This document shows positions 11,276 through 23,943 of a stretch of DNA of 32,000 nucleotides, piece by piece. The notes under the pieces were generated by a model, which saw only the letters and a list, made by a program, of their open reading frames with translations, did no database searches and was not told the origin of the DNA. Source of the DNA: Candidatus Hermodarchaeota archaeon (lineage in GTDB: Archaea; Asgardarchaeota; Heimdallarchaeia; Hodarchaeales; Hodarchaeaceae); assembly GCA_048886185.1 (NCBI GenBank), contig JBHLKY010000005.1:30001-62000 (forward strand). Direction: 5' to 3'. The stretch's first letter is position 1. Every line of letters begins with the position of its first letter. Made by a program: the position numbers and the translations under genes.

Positions 11276-13237
11276 ATGTTGGCGAAGGATCGATTTCCTA
11301 CTGAAATAATCGATGTTTGTTTACTATTATCAAACCATGGATTTCAAGCGTTTGTAGTTGGTGGATCTATACGAGACATCATCCAAGGAAATTTTTTACC
11401 ACAGGATTGGGATATCGCAACTGATGCAAAACCTTCTGAAGTAATAGGAGTCTTTAATAAGAGATTTCGTGTTATTCCAACTGGAATTAAGCATGGCACG
11501 GTTACCATTCTCTTTAATGGTCTATCAATAGAAATAACAACATTTAGAGTTGAGGGAGACTATATCGATGGTCGAAGACCACTTGAGGTTCATTTTGTTA
11601 AAAAAATTACTGACGATTTATCTCGTCGCGACCTCACAATCAATGCTATAGCATATGATCCCATTCATGACATTCTTTCAGATCCTTTCAACGGGATTAA
11701 AGACATTGAGGCAGGAATCATCAGGATGGTCGGGGATCCGAATAAACGCCTGAAAGAGGATGGATTACGCCTGATTCGAATTTTTCGATTTGTTTCGCAG
11801 TTAGGATTTAATATTGACCCCCCAACTTCAATTGCAGTTACTAATAATTTAACTATTTTTAATAAAGTTGCTAAGGAACGTATACACACAGAGTTTCAAA
11901 AATTATTACAGGGAGCTTTTTTTCAGAAATCTATTCTCTTATTAGAAGACTGTGGTCTGTTATATCACCTCATACCAGAATTTAATGATGCAGTTTTATC
12001 GAAAAATGTTTCTGAAATTAATTTGAACAGAATTGAGCTGACCTTGAAAATCGTGTCAAGCCTCCCTAGTTCTTCTTCTCAAAATCTTCGTTTTGCAACA
12101 TTGATTCACCAATTGTCTGCAATCCCATCAAAATCATCAATGATATTTCCTCCTTTCCAAGAAAATTTCATTCAAAAAATTCTAAAAAGCATGAAATGTT
12201 CTAATAAACAGATAACAACTGTATCTCACATTTTATCAATCCATTTATTGCGTCTTCCATATTCTATGCAAGAAGAAGATGATACAAAAGACTATTTAAT
12301 AAGAAAATTTCAGTATAAGATTCAACCTGAATATTTAACTGATTATTTAAATTTCTATTATGCGAAAGAGAACATTTTACGAAAAGAAAAACTCCTCACA
12401 GAACTTCTGAAAGACGATATAACGAAAAGAGCGAGAACCCAACAACCTATTGAATTGAAAGATCTTGCGCTAAATGGTGATGATATAATTCAGTTTTTTC
12501 TAATAAATAAAAAATACTCATCACAGCGAGAATTTATAGGTTTATGTCTTCAAATTATCCGGGAACGAGTGGAACTAAACCCCCAGATCAATCTAAAAGG
12601 TAAACTTTTTACCATTCTTGAAAATCTAAATAAAATCTTAACCCAGTGTACAACACAAATTACACGACGAGTTCATATTGTCTCAACGGATCATATCAGA
12701 AAGCTTTATTGTAATGGCGTCCCTAAATATGTTCAATGGGAAAATGAACACACTTATTTACTATCTAAATGGCTTATTCGTTGTCAACTTCGTAAGGATA
12801 CAAAATCGATAGTAATATTTGATGGAACTAATTTTAATTTTCCAACACATCCTACTCATCGAGAAAAACTATGTATTAGATTTAAACAGTACAATCCCAT
12901 ATTTATAAACACTAGTGCCTCTGAAGAAGAAGTTAAACTAAATTTAGAAACTAGAAATAAGGAGCCATCTTCTATAAAAAAGAGTGATGCTGATCTTAGT
13001 ATATTCAGACGTTATCAGGATTTACTTAGAACTTATCCAAAAGCTCTTAACATACTGGACGGTTATGACTTCATACAGCTATCAACACGTCACCCAGAAT
13101 TCTTATCCCTGATTCAAGATATCACAAAAAGAATTCTCAAAAATAAGAATCGTTTGGTAGTTATGAGTGGTAATGTCCTTACTGGAAAGACTTATACAGC
13201 TTATATTCTTCAAAAATATTTAGAGGGAAACAAATAA
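11276..13237 (+). CDS. cca: Class II tRNA nucleotidyltransferase (CCA-adding enzyme / poly(A) polymerase family) fused to a C-terminal P-loop kinase-like domain
   Basis: VVGGSIRD...DWDIAT, GIKHGTV, EITTFRVEGDYIDGRRP (flexible loop), DLSRRDLTINA, DPFNG and EDGLRLIR (EDxxR). The C-terminal ~190 aa carry STDHIR, IFDGTN, SDAD and GNVLTGKT. Confidence 0.88.
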   Translation: MLAKDRFPTEIIDVCLLLSNHGFQAFVVGGSIRDIIQGNFLPQDWDIATDAKPSEVIGVFNKRFRVIPTGIKHGTVTILFNGLSIEITTFRVEGDYIDGRRPLEVHFVKKITDDLSRRDLTINAIAYDPIHDILSDPFNGIKDIEAGIIRMVGDPNKRLKEDGLRLIRIFRFVSQLGFNIDPPTSIAVTNNLTIFNKVAKERIHTEFQKLLQGAFFQKSILLLEDCGLLYHLIPEFNDAVLSKNVSEINLNRIELTLKIVSSLPSSSSQNLRFATLIHQLSAIPSKSSMIFPPFQENFIQKILKSMKCSNKQITTVSHILSIHLLRLPYSMQEEDDTKDYLIRKFQYKIQPEYLTDYLNFYYAKENILRKEKLLTELLKDDITKRARTQQPIELKDLALNGDDIIQFFLINKKYSSQREFIGLCLQIIRERVELNPQINLKGKLFTILENLNKILTQCTTQITRRVHIVSTDHIRKLYCNGVPKYVQWENEHTYLLSKWLIRCQLRKDTKSIVIFDGTNFNFPTHPTHREKLCIRFKQYNPIFINTSASEEEVKLNLETRNKEPSSIKKSDADLSIFRRYQDLLRTYPKALNILDGYDFIQLSTRHPEFLSLIQDITKRILKNKNRLVVMSGNVLTGKTYTAYILQKYLEGNK

Positions 13238-13288: not shown

Positions 13289-14998
13289 ATGAAAAAAACT
13301 AAAGGCCAGTTCTTTACCCCAGGATTCTTGGTAAAGGCAATCTTAGATAAAGTTACTACTTTTTTTCCAAAAGAGTATGAATCAAGACAGATAACGATTT
13401 TGGATCCAGCTATAGGAAAAGGTGTATTCTTATCAACCTTAATTCCTATAATTTCATCAAAGTTTCACTCGGTTAAACTTTATGGCTTAGATATAGATTC
13501 CTCTATAATCAAAATTGCCAATAAGAATTTGCTTCCCTTAGCTAAAGAATTTAATTATGAAATGGAAGTAAAGCTTGGAGATTTTTTCCTTGAATTTCCT
13601 TTGGACTTTCCAAAAGAGTTTGATGTAATTATTGGGAATCCACCTCACAACGCAAAATATTCTCATTCTGAATGGGAGGAAATAAGAGAAAATTGTTTTT
13701 TTGGTCAAATTTCTAATGTACGGTCTGAAAGTTCTGTTTTCTTCACTTTAAAATCATTAAATCTTCTTAAGCCATGTGGTCTCCTCTGTTTTTTGTTACC
13801 TAAACCAATTATTTATTCAAAAAGATGGGTTGTCTTCAGGGAAATACTATTAACCGATTATACACTTATTGGAGTCTTTGATCTCGGAAATCAATTTACT
13901 GGTCAGCTACAGGAGCAATGTGCATTAATTATCCAAAAAAGGACTCCAATCTCTATAGGGCATCAATATGTAACAGGAATTTGGAACTCCAACCTAAAAA
14001 AATTCCTAAAAGTTGACAGAATCTTTAATAAAGATGCAATAGCTTTAGATAATCTTTTGGTGGGAGTGAGCTCTGCTGAGATGGAGCTGATTCGGCGTTT
14101 TCATAGGAAAAATTATATTGATCTAGATGTTAACGCTTTTCGGGGACTAAGCAGCCGTTATCGAAGCATAGAAGGAGAAATTCCTTTGATCGAAAAAAGT
14201 AATTTTGCTTCTGGTTTTTTATTTCCGACACAGCACTATATAAGTCCAAATACTCCCCAAAAGCTTCTACTTAGACAAAAAGTCCCAAAAATTATTGCAC
14301 AACGAATAATCTCATATCGCACAAAACCAAAATTTAGATTAGATGTAAAAACCTGGTTTGATTCGAAAGGAGCTATTCTCACACATGAAACTGTGATCAA
14401 TATTATTCCAAATTATTCCCAACAAATAATCTCATATTGTGCTATTGCTGGTTTACTAGAGTCATCATTCGTTGAATGGTGGCTTAAATCTACAGTCTAT
14501 ACTCAAGAATTTGTAACAAGTAAAGATTTTGATAAAGCATACATAAATTCAATAAGAATACCGAAAATTGTAGGCCCAATAAATAAGAATTACAGGTTGA
14601 AGCTTTCAAATTTACTTCAAAAGAAGCAGTACGAAGAGATACTGAATGAAGTAAAAAACCAATCGAATATTGATAAATTTTTTACTTTAGGAGAGATATA
14701 TGAATGCTATCAAACTACAGGTCATAAACTAAAGAAGAAGTTATTAGAATCGATCCAGGCTGAAAAGCCTTTCAACGAGAAATTTTCGGAATTTAGAAAG
14801 TGTAAATTATATTATAATCGTCTATTAAAAAGATTTTATTCTCCTTCTGAGGAATCTCATCTTCAAGATCAATGTGAGGAGATATTGGATTTATTCTCAG
14901 AACTTAAAATATTGAAGGAGAATATGAATGAAATTGTTATTTCACTTTATGAAATCAATTCTGAAGAGCGAGAACTTATCAAAAAAGATTTAATCTGA
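13289..14998 (+). CDS. N6-adenine DNA methyltransferase, M.TaqI-like, with NPPH catalytic motif (MTase-3)
   Basis: GQFFTP, ILDPAIGKGVF, LYGLDID, FDVIIGNPPH, LLKPCGLLCFLLP, and C-terminal PKIIAQRI and LLES TRD-type motifs. Confidence 0.8.
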   Translation: MKKTKGQFFTPGFLVKAILDKVTTFFPKEYESRQITILDPAIGKGVFLSTLIPIISSKFHSVKLYGLDIDSSIIKIANKNLLPLAKEFNYEMEVKLGDFFLEFPLDFPKEFDVIIGNPPHNAKYSHSEWEEIRENCFFGQISNVRSESSVFFTLKSLNLLKPCGLLCFLLPKPIIYSKRWVVFREILLTDYTLIGVFDLGNQFTGQLQEQCALIIQKRTPISIGHQYVTGIWNSNLKKFLKVDRIFNKDAIALDNLLVGVSSAEMELIRRFHRKNYIDLDVNAFRGLSSRYRSIEGEIPLIEKSNFASGFLFPTQHYISPNTPQKLLLRQKVPKIIAQRIISYRTKPKFRLDVKTWFDSKGAILTHETVINIIPNYSQQIISYCAIAGLLESSFVEWWLKSTVYTQEFVTSKDFDKAYINSIRIPKIVGPINKNYRLKLSNLLQKKQYEEILNEVKNQSNIDKFFTLGEIYECYQTTGHKLKKKLLESIQAEKPFNEKFSEFRKCKLYYNRLLKRFYSPSEESHLQDQCEEILDLFSELKILKENMNEIVISLYEINSEERELIKKDLI

Positions 14999-15062: not shown

Positions 15063-15977
15063 ATGTTGCAAGAAAAAGAGGGTGTATCCATAGATTTACC
15101 TGAAGAATGGGGAGGAATTATTCCTCTTAATGTCTTTATTGAGGAAGCAAATAAGTTAGTTTCTAAAGCTGAAGAATCTGGTATTCATTTCCGATTAGTT
15201 GGAGGATTAGCAATTCGTCTTCATGTACAATCCCATGGATTGGAGGATTTATATAAAAGATTAAAGCGGTTAGGTGATAAAGCAGAAATCACAGATATTG
15301 ATGGTGCAATTTCTTACAAACACATGAAAAAAATGGATAAATTCATGAATAATATGGGTTATGCTAAGAGACAACCAACCTTATCCACAGCCGCTAGTCA
15401 GCGAAGAATCTATATTCACCCGAAGAATTGGTGGTTTGTAGATTGTTTTTATGGAAAAATAAAATTCAATCATGACATTGATTTAGATCACAAACGTTTG
15501 GGATTGGATTCCCCCACTCTTCCTTTAGCAGAACTACTTCTGGGAAAAACTCAGATAGTATTTATGAACTATAAAGACGTTGCTGACTCTATAATGTTAA
15601 TACTAGCTCATAAGATTAGTTATGATGACAGCCCAGAGACAATAAACATTAAACATATAGGTGAAAATTATTTTAAAAAGGGAGGATATGCATGGGGTTT
15701 CTATCACACAGTAACGACGAATCTTGTTAATATTAAAAATGTTTTACCAGAATTTACAGAGCTTTCAGATGAACAAAGAGAAGATGTCAGCGTAAAAGTT
15801 GACGAAATGATCAAATATTTCGATGAAGTCCCCAAAAACCGTGCTTGGCGAGCGAGGGCAAAAATTGGTCCTTCCAAAAAATGGTATCGTCCAGTAGAAA
15901 CATCAAAAACAGTTGGAGAGTTTGGCATATTCAGTGGGAAACATTTACTTGACAAACCAACACAGAAAGATCATTAA
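15063..15977 (+). CDS. Uncharacterised Pol-beta-superfamily nucleotidyltransferase (NTase-A)
   Basis: LVGGLAIRLH...ITDID (GG + DxD signature), third acidic residue in FVDCF, and LPLAELLLGKTQI...KDVAD helical motif. The ORF track opens at 15012; ATG 15063 is preferred (AGGTGG upstream, TTTATATA at 15000-15007). Confidence 0.7.
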   Translation: MLQEKEGVSIDLPEEWGGIIPLNVFIEEANKLVSKAEESGIHFRLVGGLAIRLHVQSHGLEDLYKRLKRLGDKAEITDIDGAISYKHMKKMDKFMNNMGYAKRQPTLSTAASQRRIYIHPKNWWFVDCFYGKIKFNHDIDLDHKRLGLDSPTLPLAELLLGKTQIVFMNYKDVADSIMLILAHKISYDDSPETINIKHIGENYFKKGGYAWGFYHTVTTNLVNIKNVLPEFTELSDEQREDVSVKVDEMIKYFDEVPKNRAWRARAKIGPSKKWYRPVETSKTVGEFGIFSGKHLLDKPTQKDH

Positions 15978-16022
15978 TCTTGAGTGTGAGACCCTAATTT
16001 ACGATCATTGCACTTTTATAAT

Positions 16023-16907
16023 TCAAATATGCCGAGCATCTACTCTTTCAGGTTTTTCCATCTTGACTTTGGACAAGAAACTTGGTTTTTTATCTTCCAT
16101 TGGCTTGATACAATCAATTAATTTTGCCAGTTTAGATTTTCCTTCCACATTACAACATACATCTCCAGAATAGTTAAGTGTTTCTCGGAAATTACGAAGT
16201 ATTGTTGAAGGAAATTCCAATTTTGTTTTTGCTAGGAGTTCAAATATTTTTATGCCTATTGAAAACTCAACAGCTGGATCCAGCTCAGGAGTATCAAAAA
16301 TGGAATCTTCTATTTCAACGTGGCAATTTGAGTTGAATATACTCGAGATATCTTGGATATCTTTCAGATCAAAGTCATCAGGATGGATGGCATTTGCTTT
16401 TAATGCAATCTGGAGGCCAGGAGGACATATTAAAGTCTCAGAGTAACTTGAGGGAAGTTCATCAAACTTAAAAGTCCAACACATTCTGATGCCATCCACA
16501 AAGACTTCTACCTTTTGAAAATCGGCCTCTTCAATATTGTTCATTCGTCCATGTTCAAGTTCTTCTATTTCTGAAGACGAAAGTTCACGATTTGGTTTGT
16601 AATACTCTCTCCTAGGTGTTCTAGACATATTTTGCATCATATTAAACGGTCTATTGGGGTAGAAACCATTTTGCTTAAGAATGGTTTTAATTGGTTTATC
16701 TGCTTTCTTAGGGATAAAAAACTCAAGATCACTCATTTTTCTGTAATCTAACCTTCCTCCAATCAAATGATAGATCGCACCACCCCCCCATAAAAAACAA
16801 GGAATTGATTCGTCTTTACAACTTTGTAGAATTTTATAGCCACTTCTCATCAAGGTATCATTGTGTACTTTATTAGAATTGTCCATGATTTTGCCTTCAT
16901 TGTACAT
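16023..16907 (-). CDS. Uncharacterised nucleotidyltransferase-fold protein (NTase-B), distant paralogue of 15063..15977
   Basis: LWGGGAIYH...MSDLEF, KVEVFVD and ALKANA...KDIQDI align in order with the NTase-A motifs. Confidence 0.6.
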   Translation of the reverse strand: MYNEGKIMDNSNKVHNDTLMRSGYKILQSCKDESIPCFLWGGGAIYHLIGGRLDYRKMSDLEFFIPKKADKPIKTILKQNGFYPNRPFNMMQNMSRTPRREYYKPNRELSSSEIEELEHGRMNNIEEADFQKVEVFVDGIRMCWTFKFDELPSSYSETLICPPGLQIALKANAIHPDDFDLKDIQDISSIFNSNCHVEIEDSIFDTPELDPAVEFSIGIKIFELLAKTKLEFPSTILRNFRETLNYSGDVCCNVEGKSKLAKLIDCIKPMEDKKPSFLSKVKMEKPERVDARHI

Positions 16908-16998
16908 AGATTTTGTGCTAATTAACTATTTATAAGGTTTTTTTAAAATCCTAATTAAATATTATTTTGAAAACAATGATTCCAGATGAATGAATAAT

Positions 16999-18030
16999 TT
17001 AAGATTCGACCCTCTGCATCCGTTTTATTTTACCTTTATCCAATTCTACCAAGAATCCTTTTAAAATAGCTTCAGTATATTCGCTGCCAGGATTAAGACA
17101 ATAAGTTCTACCAATTTTCATACTCCCTGCTGACTCATGGATATGTCCAAATAAACCCAATAGAGGTTGATGCGTTTCTATTGCGTTTCTAACCGCCTTA
17201 CAGCCAACAGATCCTCTTAGTGGTTCTCCTCCACTATAACCGACATATGTTAAATCCTCATTTAAAAGAGGAGCTTCATCAATGATACTATCATAGGGAG
17301 GACAATGGAAACAAAAAACAGCATTCTCCATGGTATTTATCTGTGAAGTTAACTTTTCTATGTTAGCCTCTAATTGTTCTTCACCACATTCTCTATAAGT
17401 ATTCCAGGGAGTAGGATTTGTCCATCCATAACTTATCATCTCATGATTTTTATCAAGATCAACTTTTACTCCTTCACCAAAAATTACGCGAGGATCTTTC
17501 TGGATAATTTCGTCAATAGCAAATTTATCATCATTTCCAGGACAAATAATTATCTTTGTGCCCTCTGGTACACGTTTTGATCCATCGGGCATAATGTCGT
17601 CTATTTGGTCGATCCAAACCTGGAGGCCTTGTGCTTCCACTTCATCAAACAATTTATCAAGAGGACCTCCTTTAATCATCTTTTGATCTTCAGTAACTGA
17701 CTTGGGAGAAGATAATACAGCATCTTCCTCGGGCGTTAACCGATATGGATAACTACCTGCAAATCTCGCTCTTGTTTCAAAATCCTTGATTTCTTCTTCT
17801 GTTTTCATTATCACAGCTTGTTGATCTACACCATAAATCGAACCTTTCCATGTTCCGTCTGGCTGTTGGATAATTGGGACAATTCTCTTTCCTGTAATAT
17901 CTCCTCCCATAATTAAAATATCTGCTTGTAAATATTTAGCCGTATTCAGAAATTTTCTCCAAACAGCTTCAGAACCGTGTATATCTGTACAGAAAAATAG
18001 GGTCACCATTGATTTCACAACCTGATTCAT
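16999..18030 (-). CDS. Calcineurin-like metallophosphoesterase (Icc-related, GNDD variant)
   Basis: TDIHGS, MGGDITGK, PGNDD, FHCPPY, GHIHES and LNPGSEY. Confidence 0.9.
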   Translation of the reverse strand: MNQVVKSMVTLFFCTDIHGSEAVWRKFLNTAKYLQADILIMGGDITGKRIVPIIQQPDGTWKGSIYGVDQQAVIMKTEEEIKDFETRARFAGSYPYRLTPEEDAVLSSPKSVTEDQKMIKGGPLDKLFDEVEAQGLQVWIDQIDDIMPDGSKRVPEGTKIIICPGNDDKFAIDEIIQKDPRVIFGEGVKVDLDKNHEMISYGWTNPTPWNTYRECGEEQLEANIEKLTSQINTMENAVFCFHCPPYDSIIDEAPLLNEDLTYVGYSGGEPLRGSVGCKAVRNAIETHQPLLGLFGHIHESAGSMKIGRTYCLNPGSEYTEAILKGFLVELDKGKIKRMQRVES

Positions 18031-18600
18031 TGACTTAATTTGATTATTTTGTTATTGCCTTGATTTGGGTTTGCGAGACTATTGGAATATTAATTTTTCG
18101 AATTTGATTGTGCTAGAAATATAATATTTCATTTTGGAACTAGATATATTTTTCCTATTTCCATATTTTTACTGAGACATATACTAAGATTGGTGTTACT
18201 GGCAGGATGTAGTATGAAGTAACGGAAAATGAATTTTGAGCACTAAAAAGCTTAATTTTTATCTTTGAGTATTTCAAAACTAGTTCATAATGAATACATT
18301 GAATAGATTAATTTTTCAAGATAGGGGTTATAAAGTTGATTCTACTTACTTCATTCCAATCAATAAGGATGAAAAACTCAAAATTAAAGTTTAATTTTCA
18401 AAACTTAATATCATTTTTCTTCATTTAAAATATAAGCTGGGGAACCGTAACAAATCTCAGTTAAATTAGGGAATTAAAGTTTATTAAAACTTTAATTTAA
18501 CTGATTAGGTTAGAAATACATAATTCCATAAAAATACGAAATCCAATGACTTAAACAGCTTTTTATCATCAACAATAAGTCAGCCAAATCAAGAATTAAA

Positions 18601-18615
18601 GCGAAACTTTTATAA
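18601..18615 (+). promoter_or_regulatory. Candidate archaeal BRE/TATA promoter for the APC permease
   Basis: GCGAAAC-TTTTATAA matches the purine-rich BRE + TATA pattern and lies ~220 nt upstream of ATG 18837. Not verified; the sequence is AT-rich. Confidence 0.45.
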
Positions 18616-18836
18616 TCCCAATATTGGGGAGTAAATCTTTGTGCTAAATGCTTAGTAAATAGGTTAAAATTAATCTATCATAAGCAAAACACATATTGAA
18701 ACGGTGTCATTCGCGGTAGAAAAAGTGATTTCTTAAAGCGAATTGACAAAACAAAAACCAAATGGACATAAAAAAAATAACCTAAAAATCTAAAAGAAAA
18801 AAACAAAATTTGTATCAGATTTCAAAGGTGACATAA

Positions 18837-20702
18837 ATGAGTGAAAGTAAAACTTATGTCCGAGATGCAACTGGGTTAGTGCGAGAAATTGGTGTCATCA
18901 CAGCCACTATTTTCATTCTAAGTAATGTTATTGGTGGTGGTTGGCAGAAGAAAGTCTACCAAGCAGCCGGCGCAGCCCCCCTCAAACCCGAAGATTATCT
19001 ATTACCAATCGAACCTATAGTTATTGCTTTTCTAATAACAGGAGCAGCAGCAATATGCACTGTTTTCGTTTTTGCAGTGATGGCTACAGCCATGCCAAGA
19101 GCTGGTGGAGGATATGTTTACATATCTCGAACTATTAGTCCAGGAATCGGATTTGTTTGTGCATGGGCAGAGTTCATGGGCATAGCATTATCCTATGGGA
19201 TTATCGCAGTTGCAGTCGTAGAGTTTATAGGACTCTTCTTACCTAAAGGTATAACTGGAGATTTCGGTGAATCTTTGCAGGATTTCATTGATACACCTAT
19301 TATTGCAGGAACAAAAACAGCATTCTTTGATCCAGTACCATTAATGTTCTGGGGAATTATATTTATCTTCGCTTTTGGTGCGCTAGCATACTTTGGAGCA
19401 TCAATGACTGGTAAAGTTCTACATATTATGTTCTGGATCCCCGCAGTTATTACTTTGACGATCTATCTTTTCTTAATTCTTGGAGCTCTAGATTCAGCTA
19501 CCATGATAAATGGTATCACAGAATTTAGTGGATATACACCGCAACAATGGATAGAAGAAGCAGTAGCCCAAGGAATTGAAGGCAATGCAGCAGCAGATTA
19601 TGTTTCTGCTGTCAATGAGTCAGTAATGGCCGCATACTGGGCATGGATTGGTTATGCAGCAATTTCTTTTGCAGCAGGCGAAGTAAAAGAAGCCAACAGA
19701 TCATTACCTATTTCTCATCTGGCAGCAGGTTTCATCATCCTCGGTGTCTATGTTACAGTTAGTACATTCATGGCAATGGCTGCCTCAGTTTCATTTGACG
19801 GAAATACAACAGGATGGACATTCTTCCAGGCACAAGCTTACTTAGGTTATGGTGCTGGTTCGGCTACTACTGAATTTCCCAATCTCGCATGGATGCCTTT
19901 TGTAGCCATGATGTCTTCAACGGGCTTTAATCTCTTTAATATGGGTGGTCTTCTAAACATTGCCTTTGCTGTAGCAGCTGTCTTATGGCTTGCCAACGAC
20001 TTACCTCCATTCGTAACTACCTCGTCTCGTATCATCTTTGCCATGTCATTTGATAGAGCTCTTCCAGAGGTATTCGCTAAAGTCGATGAACGCTGGCACT
20101 CGCCTACTTACGCGATTCTCTTTGTCTGTTTTGTCGCTATTCTTGGTGGTTTTGGTGAAGCAGACTTCTTTGGAGTAAATGGTTTCGGTGGCGGTGAAAT
20201 CCCAATTGTGTCAGACATCTTTAATCCTGCAGGCGCAGTAGAAGGAACAGACTTATTAGACGCAGTATTCTTCACCACAGCGTGTATCTCTGCCATCGTT
20301 CTGCCTAGAAAGCTAAAGGACGTCTATGAACGAAGCGGATGGCGTCCGAAGATCGGTAGCAGAGAAGCCGTAGTTGTGATGGGTATCGTTGCATTGATCC
20401 TAAACATCTACATTGATCTACTCATTCTAGGGCCTGCAAGTGCTGGTGTCCTTAAACCCATAGAAGGGCTAACAGATATATCACCATTCCTCGGGTTCTT
20501 CCCACCGTTGATCCCTGATTTGGATGTAGGAGGCGGATTAATTCCCGACTTCGGTGATCTTATCAATACGATTAACTGGTGGTTCTGGTGGTATATTCTG
20601 CTGATCGTTATTGGCGCGATCATATATATCATCATGAAAAGCTACTACAGCAAACGTGGAGTAGACTTTTCAACGATCTACGCATCTATTCCCCCCGAAT
20701 AA
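18837..20702 (+). CDS. APC superfamily (amino acid/polyamine/organocation) permease
   Basis: N-terminal YVRDATGLVRE, MPRAGGGYVYISR, SRIIFAMSFDRALP, many hydrophobic TM segments and a C-terminal IPPE, typical of archaeal APC permeases. AAGGTGA lies upstream of the ATG. Confidence 0.9.
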   Translation: MSESKTYVRDATGLVREIGVITATIFILSNVIGGGWQKKVYQAAGAAPLKPEDYLLPIEPIVIAFLITGAAAICTVFVFAVMATAMPRAGGGYVYISRTISPGIGFVCAWAEFMGIALSYGIIAVAVVEFIGLFLPKGITGDFGESLQDFIDTPIIAGTKTAFFDPVPLMFWGIIFIFAFGALAYFGASMTGKVLHIMFWIPAVITLTIYLFLILGALDSATMINGITEFSGYTPQQWIEEAVAQGIEGNAAADYVSAVNESVMAAYWAWIGYAAISFAAGEVKEANRSLPISHLAAGFIILGVYVTVSTFMAMAASVSFDGNTTGWTFFQAQAYLGYGAGSATTEFPNLAWMPFVAMMSSTGFNLFNMGGLLNIAFAVAAVLWLANDLPPFVTTSSRIIFAMSFDRALPEVFAKVDERWHSPTYAILFVCFVAILGGFGEADFFGVNGFGGGEIPIVSDIFNPAGAVEGTDLLDAVFFTTACISAIVLPRKLKDVYERSGWRPKIGSREAVVVMGIVALILNIYIDLLILGPASAGVLKPIEGLTDISPFLGFFPPLIPDLDVGGGLIPDFGDLINTINWWFWWYILLIVIGAIIYIIMKSYYSKRGVDFSTIYASIPPE

Positions 20703-20723
20703 GATCTTACTCCCTTCTCCCCC

Positions 20724-20732
20724 TTTTTTTTT
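20724..20732 (+). terminator. Oligo-T tract, candidate archaeal intrinsic terminator of the APC permease
   Basis: T9 run preceded by a C-rich pyrimidine stretch, ~20 nt after the stop codon. Confidence 0.45.
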
Positions 20733-20795
20733 ATATTATTTATTTTTCCCATACTTCTTATAAAAGGGTAAAAAAATTAGGGAACCCGAAATCCT

Positions 20796-21377
20796 GTGAC
20801 ATCCCCAGAATTATCCATGAAAGAAAAATACCTTCAATATATAGAAAAGTGCTTATTCTATAAAGGAGGAAGATGGATTGCCAATTTCGATATTGCGATT
20901 AGGGATTTCAATATTAACAGAGTAACAAAGGATAAAAGTTATATTGAACATGCGAAAGATTTTGCTGCTCTTGTTTATGGAGGTGTGAAGGGTAAGGGAT
21001 TTATTTTATCAAGAGCTTTTGCGTTTTTAGCGTCTCCAACTTATGTTGTTGCTTGTGCTGCTATAGATCTCCAAAGGGCTTCTAATGCAAAATGGTCTAC
21101 AATTGTTGATTGGATAAGACAGGTCAGAAACGTTATGGATCTAATGGAGTTTGAATGGGCATGGATAGTTTTTTTTGGAGAAGATAGTCTTCCTGACAAA
21201 GTAAAAAATCATTTTGAAAGATTTAACCAAAGAGAAATCGGACTCGTTTACGCTGATCTTAAGGGTAATCAAGTGATTAATTCAGATGGATTCATAGCGC
21301 GACGCGGAGCAAAACTGTTTCACCCTAAAAATTTAGAAGAACATCCTTTTCGCTTGAAATTTTGGAAAAAGAATTAA
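20796..21377 (+). CDS. Hypothetical soluble alpha/beta protein (193 aa)
   Basis: Long ORF with protein-like composition; TTATAAAA ~30 nt upstream; GTG 20796 or ATG 20817 start; stop directly abuts the next ORF. Confidence 0.75.
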   Translation: MTSPELSMKEKYLQYIEKCLFYKGGRWIANFDIAIRDFNINRVTKDKSYIEHAKDFAALVYGGVKGKGFILSRAFAFLASPTYVVACAAIDLQRASNAKWSTIVDWIRQVRNVMDLMEFEWAWIVFFGEDSLPDKVKNHFERFNQREIGLVYADLKGNQVINSDGFIARRGAKLFHPKNLEEHPFRLKFWKKN

Positions 21378-21908
21378 GTGAAATTTATGACCCAGACAGC
21401 AGATCTCAGCTCTACTATTGAAGAAGATCAAATAACCAGGTTTTCAACTAAAATAGGGATCTCGATTATTCTTTCATTCGGAATTATACTAGCAATAGTT
21501 TCCTTTGGTTTCGTCACTATTGGAATGTTCACTTCCCAAATCACTGGGGTTAGACTTATTCCAATAAATTTAATCACAATATCACTCGCCCTAGGTGGAG
21601 CAGTTCTTGGAACTTATTATTACCATACTAGATATGTACGTAGAGAATTAATCTTAAATCCTGATGGTTTTTGTTTAAAGATAGGGAAACGATCATATGA
21701 ATATTCTTGGAGTGATTTTTCCATTGTAGCACTATCAGTATCTACATCGCATTACGGAGCAAAAGGGTACGTTATTAAATTATTTAAGGAAGATTTAGAA
21801 GGAGATTATGTTGATTTACCAATTTATCACTTTTCAAAATCCTTAGATATTTTTTCTCTAAGACGAGAAATAGATGAAAAAGTCAAATTAGCGCAAAAAC
21901 CAGAATAA
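21378..21908 (+). CDS. Hypothetical membrane protein: two N-terminal TM helices followed by a possible PH-like beta domain
   Basis: Hydrophobic segments IGISIILSFGIILAIVSFGFVTIG and LITISLALGGAVLGTYYY, then ILNPDGFCL...YSWSDF resembling bacterial-PH-domain patterns. Confidence 0.65.
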   Translation: MKFMTQTADLSSTIEEDQITRFSTKIGISIILSFGIILAIVSFGFVTIGMFTSQITGVRLIPINLITISLALGGAVLGTYYYHTRYVRRELILNPDGFCLKIGKRSYEYSWSDFSIVALSVSTSHYGAKGYVIKLFKEDLEGDYVDLPIYHFSKSLDIFSLRREIDEKVKLAQKPE

Positions 21909-21916
21909 TTTCACTT

Positions 21917-22741
21917 TTAGATTTTATATCTGTCATCTAGCTTTTTCTTATCTTTCTCGATTGTTGTGTCTTTAATAACTCGTGGAATTTGTTTTTGTTT
22001 TGAAAAATAACCTTTTTTCGCGAGAGATGTGATACCAGATGTTAGTTCAAATAATATATCAAATAGCAATTTTGGTTTAAGACTCTCATTTATCTCTGCA
22101 GCCAAACGTATCGAAGGACTTTCTAGAGGGTACAGTGAGATTCTAATTATTTGTTCCTTTTGCGCATATATTTTCTTGATTATATCACTTTGTTCTTCCA
22201 ATATTTTCTTAAAAAATTCAAAGTCATTGACTTTAATAATAAAGGTTTCATTAAATTTTGAACTTTGGGTTTCCAGAGTGTGCAAGTGCTTTAACATGTC
22301 ATATAAAGCCTTGATATTTTTCTGTTCTCGATTAGGTAATATTTCAAACTGATACCTATGGACAATTTTATCTGCTGGATCTGCTTCAAGCAGGATAAAA
22401 TCTCGTCTTTTTCGTATCATTGAAGCAATTTTACTTAGAAGTAGATGTCTATGCACTAAAGCAAAATGGATTCTAAAATCTTTTAATGGCAGATCAGGTT
22501 TAGTTTCAACAAAATAAGTCCGTCCCATTGTACTCCTTTCAACTAATTTAAAATTTGTTATCTTCTGTTCAGTTCCTTTATTAATTGAATTATATGTGGA
22601 ATCCATTAATTGAAGATTTTTCTTTTTACCAAAATAATATGTCACAATTCCTATAATTATTGTTAAAGATGCAAAAATAAGACTGCCATTGTACAGAAAA
22701 TAAAAAAAGTATGCGATGACATAATCAATGATTGTAGGCAT
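21917..22741 (-). CDS. CCDC47/DUF1682-like single-pass membrane protein (PAT-complex subunit-like)
   Basis: TM helix followed by YYFGKKKN, and later LVHRHLLLSKIASMIRKRRDFI, which parallel CCDC47 motifs as I recall them ([29 protein letters not shown]). The ORF track opens at TTG 22798; ATG 22741 is preferred (AAGGTTGA upstream). Confidence 0.6.
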   Translation of the reverse strand: MPTIIDYVIAYFFYFLYNGSLIFASLTIIIGIVTYYFGKKKNLQLMDSTYNSINKGTEQKITNFKLVERSTMGRTYFVETKPDLPLKDFRIHFALVHRHLLLSKIASMIRKRRDFILLEADPADKIVHRYQFEILPNREQKNIKALYDMLKHLHTLETQSSKFNETFIIKVNDFEFFKKILEEQSDIIKKIYAQKEQIIRISLYPLESPSIRLAAEINESLKPKLLFDILFELTSGITSLAKKGYFSKQKQIPRVIKDTTIEKDKKKLDDRYKI

Positions 22742-22845
22742 TTTATCAACCTTTAATGTAAAATTATAGCTTAAAATAATGATTTGAGGATGACCCAAAT
22801 AATAAATTTATAATTCTTATTATGGATAAACATTGAGGAACTAGA

Positions 22846-23943
22846 TTATATCAATGATCGAGCAAAGTGAAATAGCTTATCTTCAAATTGTGGAGAATAT
22901 TTTCGAACCAAAGCGATGACCACATTAAGCTCATCTCCCTTTAAGTCACCACGAAATTCAGTAATCTCCTCTCTTCCTATTTGCTCTTTTTCACATAGTT
23001 CCATGAGGTGAGCTGCTTTAGCAAGAAGCTTATCGATATATGTGCTAATGACCGCTTTTTGGGTTTCTTTTGGAGCTATTTGTAATGTGCTTATTAAATC
23101 GTTGATAGATGGGACTCCTCTTATTTTTGAAGTAATTTGACGTTTATCCACATTAATGTGTGTAAGATTTTTGTATTTTTTTAAAAAAATGACATGAGAT
23201 GAACAGATCAGTAGATCCATACCTTTAGGGTCAATATAGGTTGTTAGGTATTGTCGTGTCAAGAGACGATGAGGGACAAGGAATTCAAAGGAAGCAACAA
23301 CTTTTTGCATAATGTCTCTAATGTCACCAACAAGTAATACTGGTTCTTCCAGTAAAAGTGTATATATCACTTTATCAAGATCTTCTGGAAAATACTCAAA
23401 TAGAAACGATAGATCACCAATCTTAAAATCATCGGAAGTTACATCTGTAATTGTATCTTTTGGCATAGTAGCAGTAGCAGGAGAGGTCACTATTTTGATG
23501 GGTTCCTCCCGAATGGGAATTTGTAAAGAATTAATGGACTCAATGATCACACTGCTTAATTTTTGTTCACGATCTGAATAAGTGAAATTTTCCTGAATTA
23601 TTTTCACGATTTTTTGAATATTTTCTTGAATAATAGGTAATGTTCTATAAAAATCGATTGATTTTGTGCTTTCGTTCATATAACCAATTGTAGCCCAAAG
23701 TGGAGGTCCTTCCATAGACTCGCTCTCAACTTTAAACATATAATAGAAGGCAATTTTATTTAATCCTGGAAGAGGTACTACAGCATGCTTGTCGCTGAGA
23801 TCTTGTTTCTCCTCCATTGCTCCGATAGCGATGAAAGATCGAACAGCTACCGTTTTAGCCACGTCTGGAGAATCCAATGAAGAATATAATATTACGGGCC
23901 CTTTTCTACGGTCAAATACTGATAAAATAACATCATTTTGCAA
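22846..23943 (-). CDS. DENN-domain protein (N-terminal longin/uDENN, core DENN, helical dDENN); putative small-GTPase GEF
   Basis: N-terminal ILSVFDRRKGP longin-type start and core LSFLFEYF...VIYTLLLEEPVLLVG typical of DENN, with a helical C-terminus. TTG start is supported by a strong SD. Confidence 0.7.
   Translation of the reverse strand: MQNDVILSVFDRRKGPVILYSSLDSPDVAKTVAVRSFIAIGAMEEKQDLSDKHAVVPLPGLNKIAFYYMFKVESESMEGPPLWATIGYMNESTKSIDFYRTLPIIQENIQKIVKIIQENFTYSDREQKLSSVIIESINSLQIPIREEPIKIVTSPATATMPKDTITDVTSDDFKIGDLSFLFEYFPEDLDKVIYTLLLEEPVLLVGDIRDIMQKVVASFEFLVPHRLLTRQYLTTYIDPKGMDLLICSSHVIFLKKYKNLTHINVDKRQITSKIRGVPSINDLISTLQIAPKETQKAVISTYIDKLLAKAAHLMELCEKEQIGREEITEFRGDLKGDELNVVIALVRKYSPQFEDKLFHFARSLI

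What the first reader, a model, noticed from the sequence alone, without database searches (positions are those of the whole stretch)
15063..21908. Uncharacterised module: two nucleotidyltransferases, a metallophosphoesterase, an APC permease and two hypothetical proteins
Six contiguous genes have no assignable pathway. NTase-A (+) converges on NTase-B (-). NTase-B and the phosphoesterase (-) are divergent from the permease, the 193-aa protein and the 2-TM protein (+) across an 806-bp control region. An NMP-adding fold next to a phosphodiester/monoester-cleaving fold and a transporter suggests two models: (a) import and nucleotide activation or dephosphorylation of an amino or phospho-amino compound, or (b) a reversible NMPylation writer/eraser switch that controls the permease. 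I recall similar phosphoesterase + NTase + APC neighbourhoods in other archaea and Actinobacteria without functional characterisation; that recollection needs checking. This is the best candidate in the window for an undescribed multi-gene system.
Basis: partly seen in the sequence, partly recalled or inferred. Interest (0 to 1): 0.8.

Follow-up and report, generated by a model that had tools for sequence, protein, structure and literature searches.

The report
Permease with docked nucleotidyltransferase and phosphoesterase
Six neighbouring genes in this Asgard archaeon form a real, undescribed unit found in hundreds of archaeal and bacterial species: an amino-acid-type membrane transporter that travels with its own nucleotide-adding enzymes, a phosphoesterase and a small membrane-anchored protein pair, most likely to switch the transporter on and off.

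Summary
In detail: all six genes are at the stated coordinates. The window comes from a Hodarchaeales (Asgard) genome.

The block is syntenic in 10 congeneric genomes whose flanks differ. The core trio also recurs well beyond the genus: metallophosphoesterase (MPE), APC permease and a MenT/ANT(2'')-like nucleotidyltransferase (NT). It lies next to 68-82 of 93 MPE-seeded loci from Chloroflexota, Actinomycetota, Bathyarchaeia and Nitrososphaeria. Among 151 genomes of the phylum the three families share one presence/absence pattern (58/57/56).

- Natural NT-MPE fusions exist, and p193-p176 fusions exist in both orders.
- p193 has a nuclease-like (PD-(D/E)XK) fold without the catalytic motif.
- Every module permease carries an N-terminal [FY]xRxA[ST]GLV[RK] motif and a C-terminal ...EIP[PV]E end, while its substrate-site helices vary.
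- A controlled complex prediction places NT-A on the permease's cytoplasmic face at exactly these motifs (score 0.70, best control 0.00).

Best reading (about 0.4): a permease-bound, reversible nucleotidylylation switch. The main rival is transport-coupled processing of the substrate. The chemistry is untested. I found no paper describing it. This scan had already noted the same module on other DNA.

The parts
15063..15977 (+). NT-A: a 304-aa Pol-beta-fold nucleotidyltransferase of the module's own family (the 'long' type), with all family invariants intact
   Evidence: The invariants G47, D78, D80, D127, H137, R145, K162, D175, W211, G212, W262, R265, G269 and W274 are conserved across 57 homologues. 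The model has pLDDT 88.5. The best structural neighbours are MenT1 (Z 11.6), ANT(2'')-Ia (11.3) and LnuA (9.5). Orthologues occur in distant loci at E 2e-73 to 3e-35. It is predicted to dock on the permease.
16023..16907 (-). NT-B: a fast-evolving second nucleotidyltransferase-fold paralogue, seen only in Hodarchaeales. It keeps the metal-binding triad but lacks several family invariants.
   Evidence: PF14907 scores 27.4 bits, below the cut-off of 31.2. It forms a long-branch clade in the NT tree. It keeps G, D..E, E, K162, K171-D172 and D175, but has lost H137, R145, W211-G212, W262 and W274-Y275. It occupies the position next to the MPE that a short NT holds in other loci.
16999..18030 (-). 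MPE: a calcineurin-like metallophosphoesterase with a complete dimetal site (probable start at 18009)
   Evidence: All five catalytic motifs are invariant in A1, and identity between archaeal and bacterial members is 48-53%. More than 7000 homologues were found. At least 584 loci lie in species-representative genomes. It is fused to an NT domain in P0104, P0113 and P0116.
18031..18836 (.). AT-rich divergent intergenic region (26% GC) with one weakly conserved block around 18597-18655 that contains a TATA-like TTTATAAT
   Evidence: Sequence. Alignment with 9 congeneric intergenic regions. No Rfam family reached threshold. Its regulatory role is inferred only.
18837..20702 (+). APC-superfamily permease (621 aa, about 12 TM segments), the centre of the module
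   Evidence: PF00324 and PF13520, E about 6e-22. Hydropathy. It lies next to the MPE in 82 of 93 loci. Its phyletic pattern matches those of the MPE and NT.
18855..18884 (+). Permease N-terminal cytoplasmic motif Y7-V-R-D-A-T12-G-L-V-R16. The family consensus is [FY]xRxA[ST]GLV[RK], with an invariant hydroxyl residue that is a candidate acceptor site.
   Evidence: The motif is present in 71 of 73 module permeases; the position is T in 49 and S in 22. It is also present in 8 of 8 further paralogues. Residues 12-17 lie in the predicted NT-A interface. Modification of this residue is an inference.
20658..20699 (+). Permease C-terminal tail G608-VDFSTIYASIPPE621. The family consensus is G[IV]D...[YFH]x[ES]IP[PV]E at the very C-terminus.
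   Evidence: G at -14 in 71/73, P at -3 in 73/73 and I at -4 in 65/73. The tail is kept in paralogues far from the NT/MPE pair. Residues 604, 609-610, 613-614 and 617-621 lie in the predicted NT-A interface.
20796..21377 (+). p193: a soluble domain with a restriction-endonuclease-like (PD-(D/E)XK) fold but no conserved catalytic D...(D/E)xK motif. The family is confined to this module.
   Evidence: Model pLDDT 83.2. Z 8.2-7.4 to the VC1899 C-domain, NucS, Rpb5, the YqgP N-domain and Can2. The invariants E17, A29, G68, S72, P81, W121 and W123 include no D/ExK. Only 79 clusters were found in 1.84 billion representatives.
21378..21908 (+). p176: a 2-TM membrane anchor with a small C-terminal cytoplasmic domain, and the partner of p193
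   Evidence: Two hydrophobic segments. Homologues follow p193 in all 26 loci of the subclade. It is fused to p193 in both orders in other genomes. Its language-model look-alikes are 2-TM DUF6585-like proteins (a lead only).
21917..22798 (-). p293: a single-TM protein that is a constant neighbour only within the genus. It is probably not part of the wider module.
   Evidence: It is syntenic in 9 of 10 congeneric loci. No homologue was found in distant loci. No Pfam hit.

Best explanation
The six genes form one permease-centred regulatory module.

Shown:
- The APC permease, the metallophosphoesterase (MPE) and a MenT/ANT(2'')-like nucleotidyltransferase (NT) are inherited together across archaea and bacteria.
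- NT and MPE occur as one fused polypeptide in some organisms.
- p193 (nuclease-like fold, no catalytic motif) and p176 (2-TM anchor) occur as one fused polypeptide in others.
- Every module permease carries a family-specific cytoplasmic N-terminal motif with an invariant Thr/Ser, and a fixed C-terminal ...EIP[PV]E end.

Supported by a controlled prediction: NT-A sits on the cytoplasmic face of the permease. It contacts these two motifs and the conserved cytoplasmic loops.

Inferred:
- The docked NT transfers an NMP from an NTP to a hydroxyl of the permease. The best candidate is Thr12. An alternative acceptor is the p193-p176 adaptor.
- This modification, or the docking itself, gates transport.
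- The MPE hydrolyses the phosphodiester and resets the switch.
- p193-p176 is a membrane-tethered adaptor added in one subclade.
- NT-B is a diverged paralogue with an altered or regulatory role.
- The transported substrate is probably an amine or amino acid and probably differs between permease paralogues.
For: 1. Synteny. NT-A, NT-B, MPE, APC, p193 and p176 are syntenic in 10 congeneric genomes at 40-85% protein identity, while the flanks differ.

2. Distant loci. An Anaerolineae locus and two unassigned metagenome contigs hold homologues of five of the six families (NT, MPE, APC, p193, p176); NT-B matches their NT genes only weakly. Among 93 MPE-seeded loci, 82 hold the APC, 68 hold an NT, and 26 hold p193+p176.

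3. Phyletic pattern. In 151 genomes of the phylum, MPE is present in 58, APC in 57 and NT in 56. Per-family tallies are almost identical, and 55 genomes share MPE and APC. One family keeps all three genes on separate contigs.

4. Fusions.
   - NT-MPE: P0104 has its NT part at residues 9-250 (E 9e-51) and its MPE part at residues 267-581 (E 2e-108).
   - Locus L114 reduces the system to [NT-MPE][p193-p176][APC].
   - At least 9 representative clusters are p193-p176 fusions, and several have the reverse order.

5. Permease conservation. Permease subclades are only 19-24% identical, with variable TM1/TM6 substrate regions. Even so, the N-terminal [FY]xRxA[ST]GLV[RK] motif (71/73; T 49, S 22) and the C-terminal tail (P at -3 in 73/73) persist. 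The MPE stays 40-50% identical over the same loci.

6. Paralogues in trans. Genomes with 3-4 permease paralogues have one MPE and only one or two NT genes, and all paralogues keep both terminal motifs.

7. Complex prediction, APC + NT-A.
   - Score 0.70, best of 3 controls 0.00. This mark was reached by 58 of 80 solved complexes and 2 of 110 mismatched pairs. The counts hold only roughly here because my own alignments were used.
   - The runs agree in at least 2% of contacts, and the partner's pLDDT is at least 76.
   - The interface on the permease is made up of residues 12-17, 87, 89, 281-287, 398-407, 414-423 and 604-621. All are cytoplasmic and include both family motifs.
   - The interface on NT-A is made up of residues 104-115, 130, 134-135 (next to catalytic D127 and H137) and 276-295 (after the family-specific W274-Y275..E279).
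   - No solved complex of this kind is known to me, so a pass from memory is unlikely.

8. Precedent (established knowledge). An NT-fold writer is paired with a metal-dependent hydrolase eraser in GlnD, Rel/SpoT and DrrA/SidD.
Against: - No nucleotidyl transfer, hydrolysis, binding or transport has been measured.
- One of the three prediction runs scored 0.00, so the docking pose is not stable across seeds.
- I could not inspect coordinates, so the distance from Thr12 to the NT active site is unknown.
- The closest solved NT relatives act on tRNA (MenT) or on small molecules (ANT(2''), LnuA), not on proteins.
- The conserved cytoplasmic loops at the interface (MPRxGG, GEVK, FDRxLP) are general APC features and would be conserved anyway.
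- MPE binding to the permease was not tested.
- p193 and p176 are absent from most loci, so they cannot be the universal target.
- High MPE conservation fits a constant small-molecule substrate as well as it fits a constant protein target.
Confidence: 0.4

Rival explanations
1. Transport-coupled substrate processing. The permease imports an amine, amino-acid or phospho-amino compound. The NT waits at the cytoplasmic exit and nucleotidylylates it (vectorial trapping or activation, as ANT(2'') and LnuA do with amino-sugar drugs). The MPE then cleaves or recycles the NMP conjugate.
For: The nearest solved NT relatives include the small-molecule O-adenylyltransferases ANT(2'')-Ia (Z 11.3) and LnuA (Z 9.5). 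Docking over the cytoplasmic vestibule is also what a channelling enzyme would do. Bifunctional fusions are common for consecutive metabolic steps. Amine-related neighbours recur in some loci: class-III aminotransferase in 6, MttB-family methyltransferase in 6, and a PotD-like ABC importer in 8. The window itself has an aminotransferase and an M20 peptidase nearby. An earlier scan note (e1-369557) preferred this reading.
Against: The substrate-site helices TM1 and TM6 differ widely between permease subclades and between paralogues within one genome, yet one highly conserved NT/MPE pair serves them all. Forming and then hydrolysing the same phosphodiester has no obvious metabolic yield. The neighbour associations are few and phylogenetically clustered. 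The family-specific termini of the permease have no role in this model unless they only hold the enzyme in place.
Confidence: 0.25
2. Nucleotide-sensing plug, or a local second-messenger loop. The NT binds the permease as a nucleotide-loaded plug, or it makes a signalling nucleotide. The MPE degrades the nucleotide signal. Transport follows the cell's nucleotide or energy state with no covalent modification of the permease.
For: In the predicted pose, the NT-A loop 104-115 reaches the innermost conserved cytoplasmic residues of the permease (R398, F401, E282, A89), like the GlnK T-loop in AmtB (the analogy comes from established knowledge). The weak nearest sequence matches of the MPE in the PDB are nucleotide phosphodiesterases: the SapH entry 3QFM, which I recall as an Ap4A hydrolase, and MPPED2. 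High MPE conservation fits a universal nucleotide substrate.
Against: The NT keeps a full catalytic triad and all invariants, which argues for catalysis rather than mere binding. No MenT/ANT-type NT is known to make a messenger. Similarity to CD-NTases is weak. Several module copies in one genome would cross-talk through a diffusible signal.
Confidence: 0.15
3. Defence or toxin-antitoxin-like system. A MenT/AbiEii-like NT toxin is held in check by the MPE, and the permease acts as sensor or effector.
For: The NT fold is closest to the MenT1 toxin (Z 11.6). The C-terminal half of the MPE matches the PADLOC candidate PDC-S10 (E 1.5e-11). The window is rich in restriction-modification-type methyltransferases. 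The paralogous MPE on contig 19 lies next to a true AbiEii gene (PF08843, 1.3e-23).
Against: No module protein other than the MPE half-match hits PADLOC. NT-A and NT-B do not match PF08843, and there is no AbiEi or MenA partner. The module shows family-level, vertical-looking inheritance in 38% of the phylum's sampled genomes and stable synteny, unlike mobile defence islands. The methyltransferase next to NT-A is absent from 5 of 10 congeneric loci. The AbiEii adjacency of the paralogue is not kept in a relative. An earlier scan note (e1-908127) reached the same rejection.
Confidence: 0.06

Closest known systems
GlnD - GlnK (PII) - AmtB nitrogen control
   Same: A membrane transporter is controlled through reversible nucleotidylylation. 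The writer has a Pol-beta-type NT fold and is paired with a metal-dependent hydrolase eraser (the HD domain of GlnD). A soluble partner inserts a loop into the transporter's cytoplasmic vestibule. The transporter and its accessory gene share an operon.
   Different: None of the proteins are homologous. There is no PII protein (p193 has a PD-(D/E)XK-like fold). The eraser is a calcineurin-like MPE, not an HD domain. The transporter is an APC permease, not an Amt channel. Here the NT itself, not a modified adaptor, is predicted to dock on the transporter. Chemistry is unproven here.
MenT1/MenT3/MenT4 and AbiEii (DUF1814) nucleotidyltransferase toxins
   Same: They are the best structural neighbours of NT-A (Z 11.6, 9.0 and 8.3). 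They share the G[GS]...DxD core plus the K...KD..D helical-domain motif.
   Different: NT-A and NT-B do not match PF08843. They have no antitoxin partner and carry extra family-specific motifs (H137, W211-G212, W262, W274-Y275..E279). They are linked to a permease and an MPE instead of AbiEi or MenA. tRNA as a target is untested.
ANT(2'')-Ia and LnuA small-molecule O-adenylyltransferases
   Same: Same NT sub-fold (Z 11.3 and 9.5). They transfer AMP to hydroxyls of amine-rich small molecules, which is the chemistry assumed in the substrate-processing rival.
   Different: They are stand-alone resistance enzymes of about 160-180 aa, without the C-terminal helical extension and without permease or phosphoesterase partners. 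Sequence similarity is not significant (E 0.26).
Bifunctional writer/eraser enzymes: Rel/SpoT, GlnE, and the DrrA-SidD pair
   Same: An NT-fold synthetase or transferase and an opposing hydrolase are encoded together or fused, as in the NT-MPE fusions found here. SidD shows that a metal-dependent phosphatase fold can remove AMP from a protein.
   Different: The hydrolase folds differ (HD, a second NT domain, or PPM versus calcineurin-like MPE), and so do the substrates. None is tied to a permease.
GkApcT with the small membrane protein MgtS (PDB 5OQT, 6F34)
   Same: It is the closest solved sequence relative of the permease (E 9e-6). It is an APC transporter that carries a small membrane-protein accessory, as p176 may be.
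   Different: Identity is very low. GkApcT lacks the N-terminal [ST]GLVR motif and the EIPPE tail, by my reading of typical APC N-termini (not tested here). MgtS has one TM segment and no soluble partner.

Membership tests
APC superfamily permease (Pfam PF00324 / PF13520) | Profile match above the curated cut-off and about 12 TM helices | tested here: met
   PF00324 78.5 bits (cut-off 24.6) and PF13520 78.4 bits (cut-off 27). About 12 hydrophobic segments. No NCBIfam equivalog is reached, so the substrate is not assigned.
Calcineurin-like metallophosphoesterase superfamily | Five metal-binding/catalytic motifs: DxH, GD, GN[HD][DE], H, GHxH | tested here: met
   D16xH18, G43D44, G165N166D167D168, H242 and G295H296xH298 are invariant in 13 diverse homologues. 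The Pfam PF00149 score of 20.1 is just below the cut-off of 21.5.
Pol-beta-type nucleotidyltransferase fold (clan NTP_transf) | hG[GS] ... DxD/E plus a third carboxylate on the core beta-sheet | tested here: met
   NT-A has G47, D78, D80 and D127 invariant in 57 sequences, and its fold matches MenT1 and ANT(2'') at Z above 11. NT-B has G, D..E and E at the same alignment columns.
Pfam PF14907 (NTP_transf_5, uncharacterised nucleotidyltransferase) | Profile match above the gathering score | tested here: inconclusive
   NT-B scores 27.4 bits against a cut-off of 31.2. NT-A has no hit. The short NT of the Anaerolineae locus has a precomputed PF14907 hit.
AbiEii / MenT toxin-antitoxin systems | PF08843 match and an adjacent AbiEi or MenA antitoxin gene | tested here: not met
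   NT-A and NT-B have no PF08843 hit and no PADLOC hit. The neighbours are the MPE and the permease. Only the fold is shared.
GlnD/PII/AmtB-type control | A PII protein, an HD and ACT-domain uridylyltransferase, and an Amt channel | tested here: not met
   No such domains were found in any of the six proteins. The p193 fold is PD-(D/E)XK-like, not PII. The resemblance is functional only.
PD-(D/E)XK nucleases (for p193) | An alpha-beta-beta-beta-alpha-beta core with the catalytic D...(D/E)xK motif | tested here: not met
   The core fold is present, with Z 8.2-7.4 to several members. However, the invariant residues (E17, A29, G68, S72, P81, W121, W123) include no D...(D/E)xK. It is therefore fold-like and probably not a nuclease.
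PADLOC candidate defence gene PDC-S10 | Full-length profile match | tested here: inconclusive
   The match is partial: MPE residues 159-314 to profile positions 63-198 of 223, E 1.5e-11. This may reflect only the shared MPE fold.

The most novel reading that the evidence does not exclude
A previously unknown way of controlling solute uptake. A MenT-like nucleotidyltransferase docks on the cytoplasmic vestibule of a dedicated class of APC permeases. It recognises their invariant N-terminal [ST]GLVR motif and their C-terminal EIPPE end, and it nucleotidylylates the invariant Thr/Ser. A cognate metallophosphoesterase erases the mark. One writer/eraser pair would govern several permease paralogues. 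The system is shared by Asgard archaea, ammonia-oxidising and Bathyarchaeial archaea, Chloroflexota and Actinomycetota.
Probability: 0.3. Interest if true: 0.85.

Novelty: categorically new. Interest (0 to 1): 0.72.

Why it matters
The module is widespread. At least 584 loci lie in species-representative genomes, and about 38% of the sampled genomes of this phylum carry it. It occurs in ecologically dominant but poorly understood groups: Asgard archaea, Bathyarchaeia, ammonia-oxidising Nitrososphaeria and Anaerolineae. Even so, I found no paper describing it.

If the switch model is right, it adds a new principle to transporter regulation: direct docking of a nucleotidyltransferase with a dedicated phosphoesterase eraser. 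It would also give the large MenT/ANT-like NT family a physiological, non-toxin role.

The work here turns a vague 'unknown operon' into a specific, cheap test. That test involves one residue (Thr12), one tail, one enzyme pair and a predicted interface. It also provides sequence signatures that let these permeases be recognised in any genome, even when the enzymes are encoded elsewhere.

Tried and rejected
- **NT-A as the restriction endonuclease of the upstream Eco57I-like methyltransferase (13289..14998).** Rejected. NT-A is a clear NT-fold protein, and the methyltransferase is missing beside NT-A in 5 of 10 congeneric loci.
- **Defence island.** PADLOC gave only a partial PDC-S10 match to the MPE and type II methyltransferase hits outside the module. 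The one held paper that mentions PDC-S10 is unrelated.
- **Riboswitch or RNA leader that would name the substrate.** No Rfam family at gathering score in the window or in 6 bacterial loci. In 7 further loci the only cis-regulatory hit is an FMN riboswitch on the opposite strand beside one MPE, which I take as coincidence.
- **Sequence search of solved structures.** Nothing significant for NT-A, NT-B or the NT profile. Only weak hits for the MPE.
- **Language-model atlas.** Scores for p193 are under 0.9, so they are leads only. p176 resembles 2-TM DUF6585-like clusters (a lead only).
- **One model of the fused p176-p193 protein.** The joint alignment (A2) misaligned the half-length rows and was dropped. 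p193 was folded alone instead.
- **Search for longer NT fusions.** It found none and even missed the known NT-MPE fusions, so it carries no weight.
- **Expression.** No RNA holder is listed for this stretch.
- **AbiEii gene beside the paralogous MPE on contig 19.** This adjacency is not kept in a relative, so I did not use it.
- **Literature.** Five full-text searches found nothing on this gene combination. The one PF14907 mention concerns a phosphonate cluster.
- **Not run.** Complex predictions of the MPE with the permease, and of p193/p176 with the permease, because the cap was one job.

Full report
**What is in the window.** The window is G000:C5:30001-62000 of a 4.84-Mb, 96%-complete, low-GC (about 33%) genome. 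Source names of near-identical proteins place it in Hodarchaeales, Asgard archaea.
- NT-A at 15063..15977 (+);
- NT-B at 16023..16907 (-);
- a metallophosphoesterase (MPE) at 16999..18030 (-);
- an 806-bp gap with 26% GC;
- an APC permease at 18837..20702 (+);
- p193 at 20796..21377 (+);
- p176 at 21378..21908 (+).

Pfam places the permease firmly in the APC superfamily. NT-B and the MPE give sub-threshold hits. NT-A, p193 and p176 give none. NCBIfam assigns no substrate. PADLOC matches only half of the MPE, to a candidate single-gene system.

**Is the grouping real?** Yes.
- In 10 congeneric genomes the block NT-A/NT-B/MPE/APC/p193/p176 (plus a genus-specific 1-TM gene, p293) is intact at 40-85% protein identity. 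The flanks vary: the methyltransferase and the CCA-enzyme gene upstream are missing in half of these loci.
- The MPE has thousands of homologues at about 48% identity in bacteria and other archaea. The first three distant contigs I opened all carry the same partners. Direct comparison shows homologues of NT-A (E down to 2e-73), the permease (1e-109 to 1e-119), p193 (1e-16 to 1e-21) and p176 (1e-7 to 1e-9) beside them.
- A scan of species-representative genomes found at least 584 loci. The best 80 come from Anaerolineae, Thermomicrobia, Actinomycetota (Rubrobacter, Thermoleophilaceae), Bathyarchaeia, Nitrososphaeria, Methylomirabilota and others.
- Among 93 loci, 82 have the permease and 68 an NT near the MPE. 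The shortfall comes partly from loci on short contigs. The 26 loci closest to the window also have p193 and p176.
- In 151 genomes of the phylum, MPE, permease and NT are present in 58, 57 and 56 genomes, with almost identical per-family tallies. Fifty-five genomes share MPE and permease. One family keeps all three genes although they lie on different contigs. Related genomes are not independent, but this is the pattern expected of parts that depend on one another.

**The enzymes.**
- *MPE.* All five catalytic motifs are invariant, and the MPE is the most conserved component: 48-53% identity between domains of life.
- *NT family.* NT-A belongs to a coherent family with an invariant G47, D78xD80, D127 triad and further invariants: H137, R145, K162, K171-D172, D175, W211-G212, W262, R265, G269, W274-Y275, E279.
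- *NT-A fold.* Its model is confident (pLDDT 88.5). Its nearest solved folds are MenT1 (Z 11.6, rmsd 3.3 A, 171 aligned), ANT(2'')-Ia (Z 11.3), an uncharacterised fungal NT-like protein (Z 11.2), LnuA (9.5), MenT3 (9.0) and JHP933 (8.7).
- *NT-B.* It forms a long-branch, Hodarchaeales-only clade. It keeps the carboxylate triad and the K...KD..D motif, but has lost H137, R145, W211-G212, W262 and the C-terminal W-Y..E segment. It is probably a diverged paralogue of the short NT that sits next to the MPE elsewhere.
- *Fusion.* Three protein clusters of about 581 aa are natural NT-MPE fusions. The two enzymes therefore act together.

**The two 'hypothetical' proteins.**
- p193 folds confidently (pLDDT 83) into an alpha-beta-beta-beta-alpha-beta core. 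The best matches are restriction-endonuclease-like domains at middling Z (8.2-7.4): the VC1899/Can2 nuclease domains, NucS, Rpb5 and the N-domain of the rhomboid YqgP. Its invariant residues contain no D...(D/E)xK, so it is probably a binding domain.
- p176 has two TM segments and a small soluble domain.
- The p193 family is tiny: 79 clusters among 1.84 billion representatives. At least 9 of these clusters are p193-p176 fusions, and several have the reverse order, as in two Bathyarchaeia genomes. p193 is thus a membrane-tethered partner of p176.
- Locus L114 compresses the whole system into three genes: [NT-MPE], [p193-p176] and [permease].

**The permease carries the signature of the module.**
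- Permease subclades are only 19-24% identical, and the TM1 and TM6 regions that bind substrate in APC transporters are not conserved between them.
- Two short cytoplasmic elements are almost invariant. The first is an N-terminal [FY]xRxA[ST]GLV[RK], present in 71 of 73, where the [ST] position is T in 49 and S in 22. The second is a tail that ends the protein: G[IV]D...[YFH]x[ES]IP[PV]E, with P at -3 in 73 of 73.
- Genomes with three or four such permeases have only one MPE and one or two NT genes. All of these paralogues keep both motifs, although they share only 31-64% identity and lie far from the enzymes.
- This is easier to explain if the soluble proteins recognise the permease than if they recognise its cargo.

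- The score was 0.70 (runs 0.00, 0.73, 0.70), and the best of three controls was 0.00. That mark was reached by 58 of 80 solved complexes and 2 of 110 mismatched pairs. These counts hold only roughly here, because my own alignments were used.
- The runs agree in at least 2% of their contacts, and the partner's pLDDT is at least 76.
- Every permease contact is on the cytoplasmic face, as judged from the standard APC topology: residues 12-17 (the TGLVRE motif), 87/89, 281-287, 398-407, 414-423 and 604-621 (the tail).
- On NT-A, the contacts are loop 104-115, residues 130 and 134-135 beside catalytic D127 and H137, and 276-295, which follow the family-specific W-Y..E segment and were disordered in the monomer model.
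- The model supports binding but does not show it. One seed failed, and I could not measure how close Thr12 comes to the active site.

**How it most likely works.**
- *Shown:* co-inheritance of the parts, the NT-MPE and p193-p176 fusions, intact catalytic sites, and family-specific cytoplasmic motifs on the permease.
- *Supported by prediction:* the NT docks on those motifs.
- *Inferred:* the NT transfers an NMP to a hydroxyl of the permease (Thr12 is the best candidate) or of the adaptor. This modification, or the docking itself, gates transport, and the MPE reverses it. I put this at about 0.4.
- *Rivals:* transport-coupled nucleotidylylation of the imported compound (0.25); a nucleotide-loaded plug or local messenger loop (0.15); a defence or toxin-antitoxin-like system (0.06).
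- *Substrate:* weak and phylogenetically clustered neighbours hint at amine-type substrates: class-III aminotransferase, MttB-family methyltransferase and a PotD-like ABC importer. No riboswitch names the substrate.

**Comparison with known systems.** Functionally the nearest analogue is GlnD-GlnK-AmtB, and more generally the NT-fold writer with a metal-hydrolase eraser (GlnD, Rel/SpoT, DrrA/SidD). None of the proteins is homologous to those, and the defining parts (PII, HD, Amt) are absent. Structurally the NT is nearest to the MenT/AbiEii toxins and to the ANT(2'')/LnuA resistance enzymes, but it fails their membership tests: no PF08843 match and no antitoxin. Five literature searches found nothing on this gene combination.

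**Earlier scan notes.** Earlier notes of this scan describe the same module on other DNA and reached similar verdicts. I read them only after my own neighbourhood analysis, and I re-tested their central claims here.

**What is new relative to those notes, as far as their summaries show:**
- the two terminal permease motifs, including the invariant Thr/Ser;
- the NT-MPE fusions and the bidirectional p193-p176 fusions;
- the fold of p193;
- the one-pair-many-permeases pattern;
- the controlled docking prediction.

**Verdict.** This is a real, widespread and undescribed module with a now sharply testable mechanism.

Noticed in passing
window 11276-13237 (+): A 653-aa class II (bacterial/eukaryotic-type) CCA-adding enzyme or poly(A) polymerase homologue: PF01743 at 9.5e-35, and NF009814 at 263 bits against a cut-off of 290. 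The archaeal class I CCA-enzyme domain PF09249 was not found anywhere in this 96%-complete genome, although it rings in 4 archaeal control genomes. An Asgard archaeon that relies on a class II enzyme would be worth a look.
   Followed up: partly
window 3983-6373 (+), 8519-11128 (-), 13289-14998 (+), 27127-28824 (+): Four Eco57I/N6-adenine methyltransferase-type genes lie in 32 kb, interleaved with housekeeping genes. Two carry TaqI_C specificity domains. At least three are syntenic across the genus at 50-70% identity, so they are not recent mobile insertions. No obvious endonuclease partner was identified.
   Followed up: partly
window 22846-23943 (-): A 365-aa protein with no Pfam, NCBIfam or PADLOC hit, conserved at 62-76% identity next to the module in several congeneric genomes. 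Its function is unknown.
   Followed up: no
G000:C19, locus L026 4616-15287: A paralogous MPE (55% identical to the module MPE) lies beside a true AbiEii nucleotidyltransferase (PF08843, 1.3e-23). The neighbourhood also holds a 1204-aa WD40 protein, an LRR protein, a ParA-like ATPase and a Ras/Roc-family small GTPase; a Roadblock/LC7 protein follows these genes in the near-identical locus L111. The AbiEii adjacency is not kept in the relative L112.
   Followed up: partly
P0123 (860 aa) and P0122 (952 aa): There are single-instance fusions of the module MPE. One is to a module-type permease: it keeps the FARKATGLVRG and ...REIPVE motifs but sits on a 2.7-kb contig, so it may be a read-through artefact. 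The other is to a GcvT-type aminomethyltransferase domain.
   Followed up: partly
L113 245-7746: One NT-MPE fusion gene sits divergently from an Opp-type oligopeptide ABC importer instead of an APC permease, with a small AbiEii-like fragment downstream.
   Followed up: no
L086 9688-9820 (-): An FMN riboswitch (85.9 bits) lies immediately upstream of, and divergent from, a module MPE in an Anaerolineaceae genome. It probably serves the gene on the other strand.
   Followed up: no
window 18597-18655: This is the only block of the 806-bp divergent intergenic region that is conserved among congeneric genomes. It contains TTTATAAT about 215 bp upstream of the permease start, which may be the permease promoter followed by a long leader.
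   Followed up: partly
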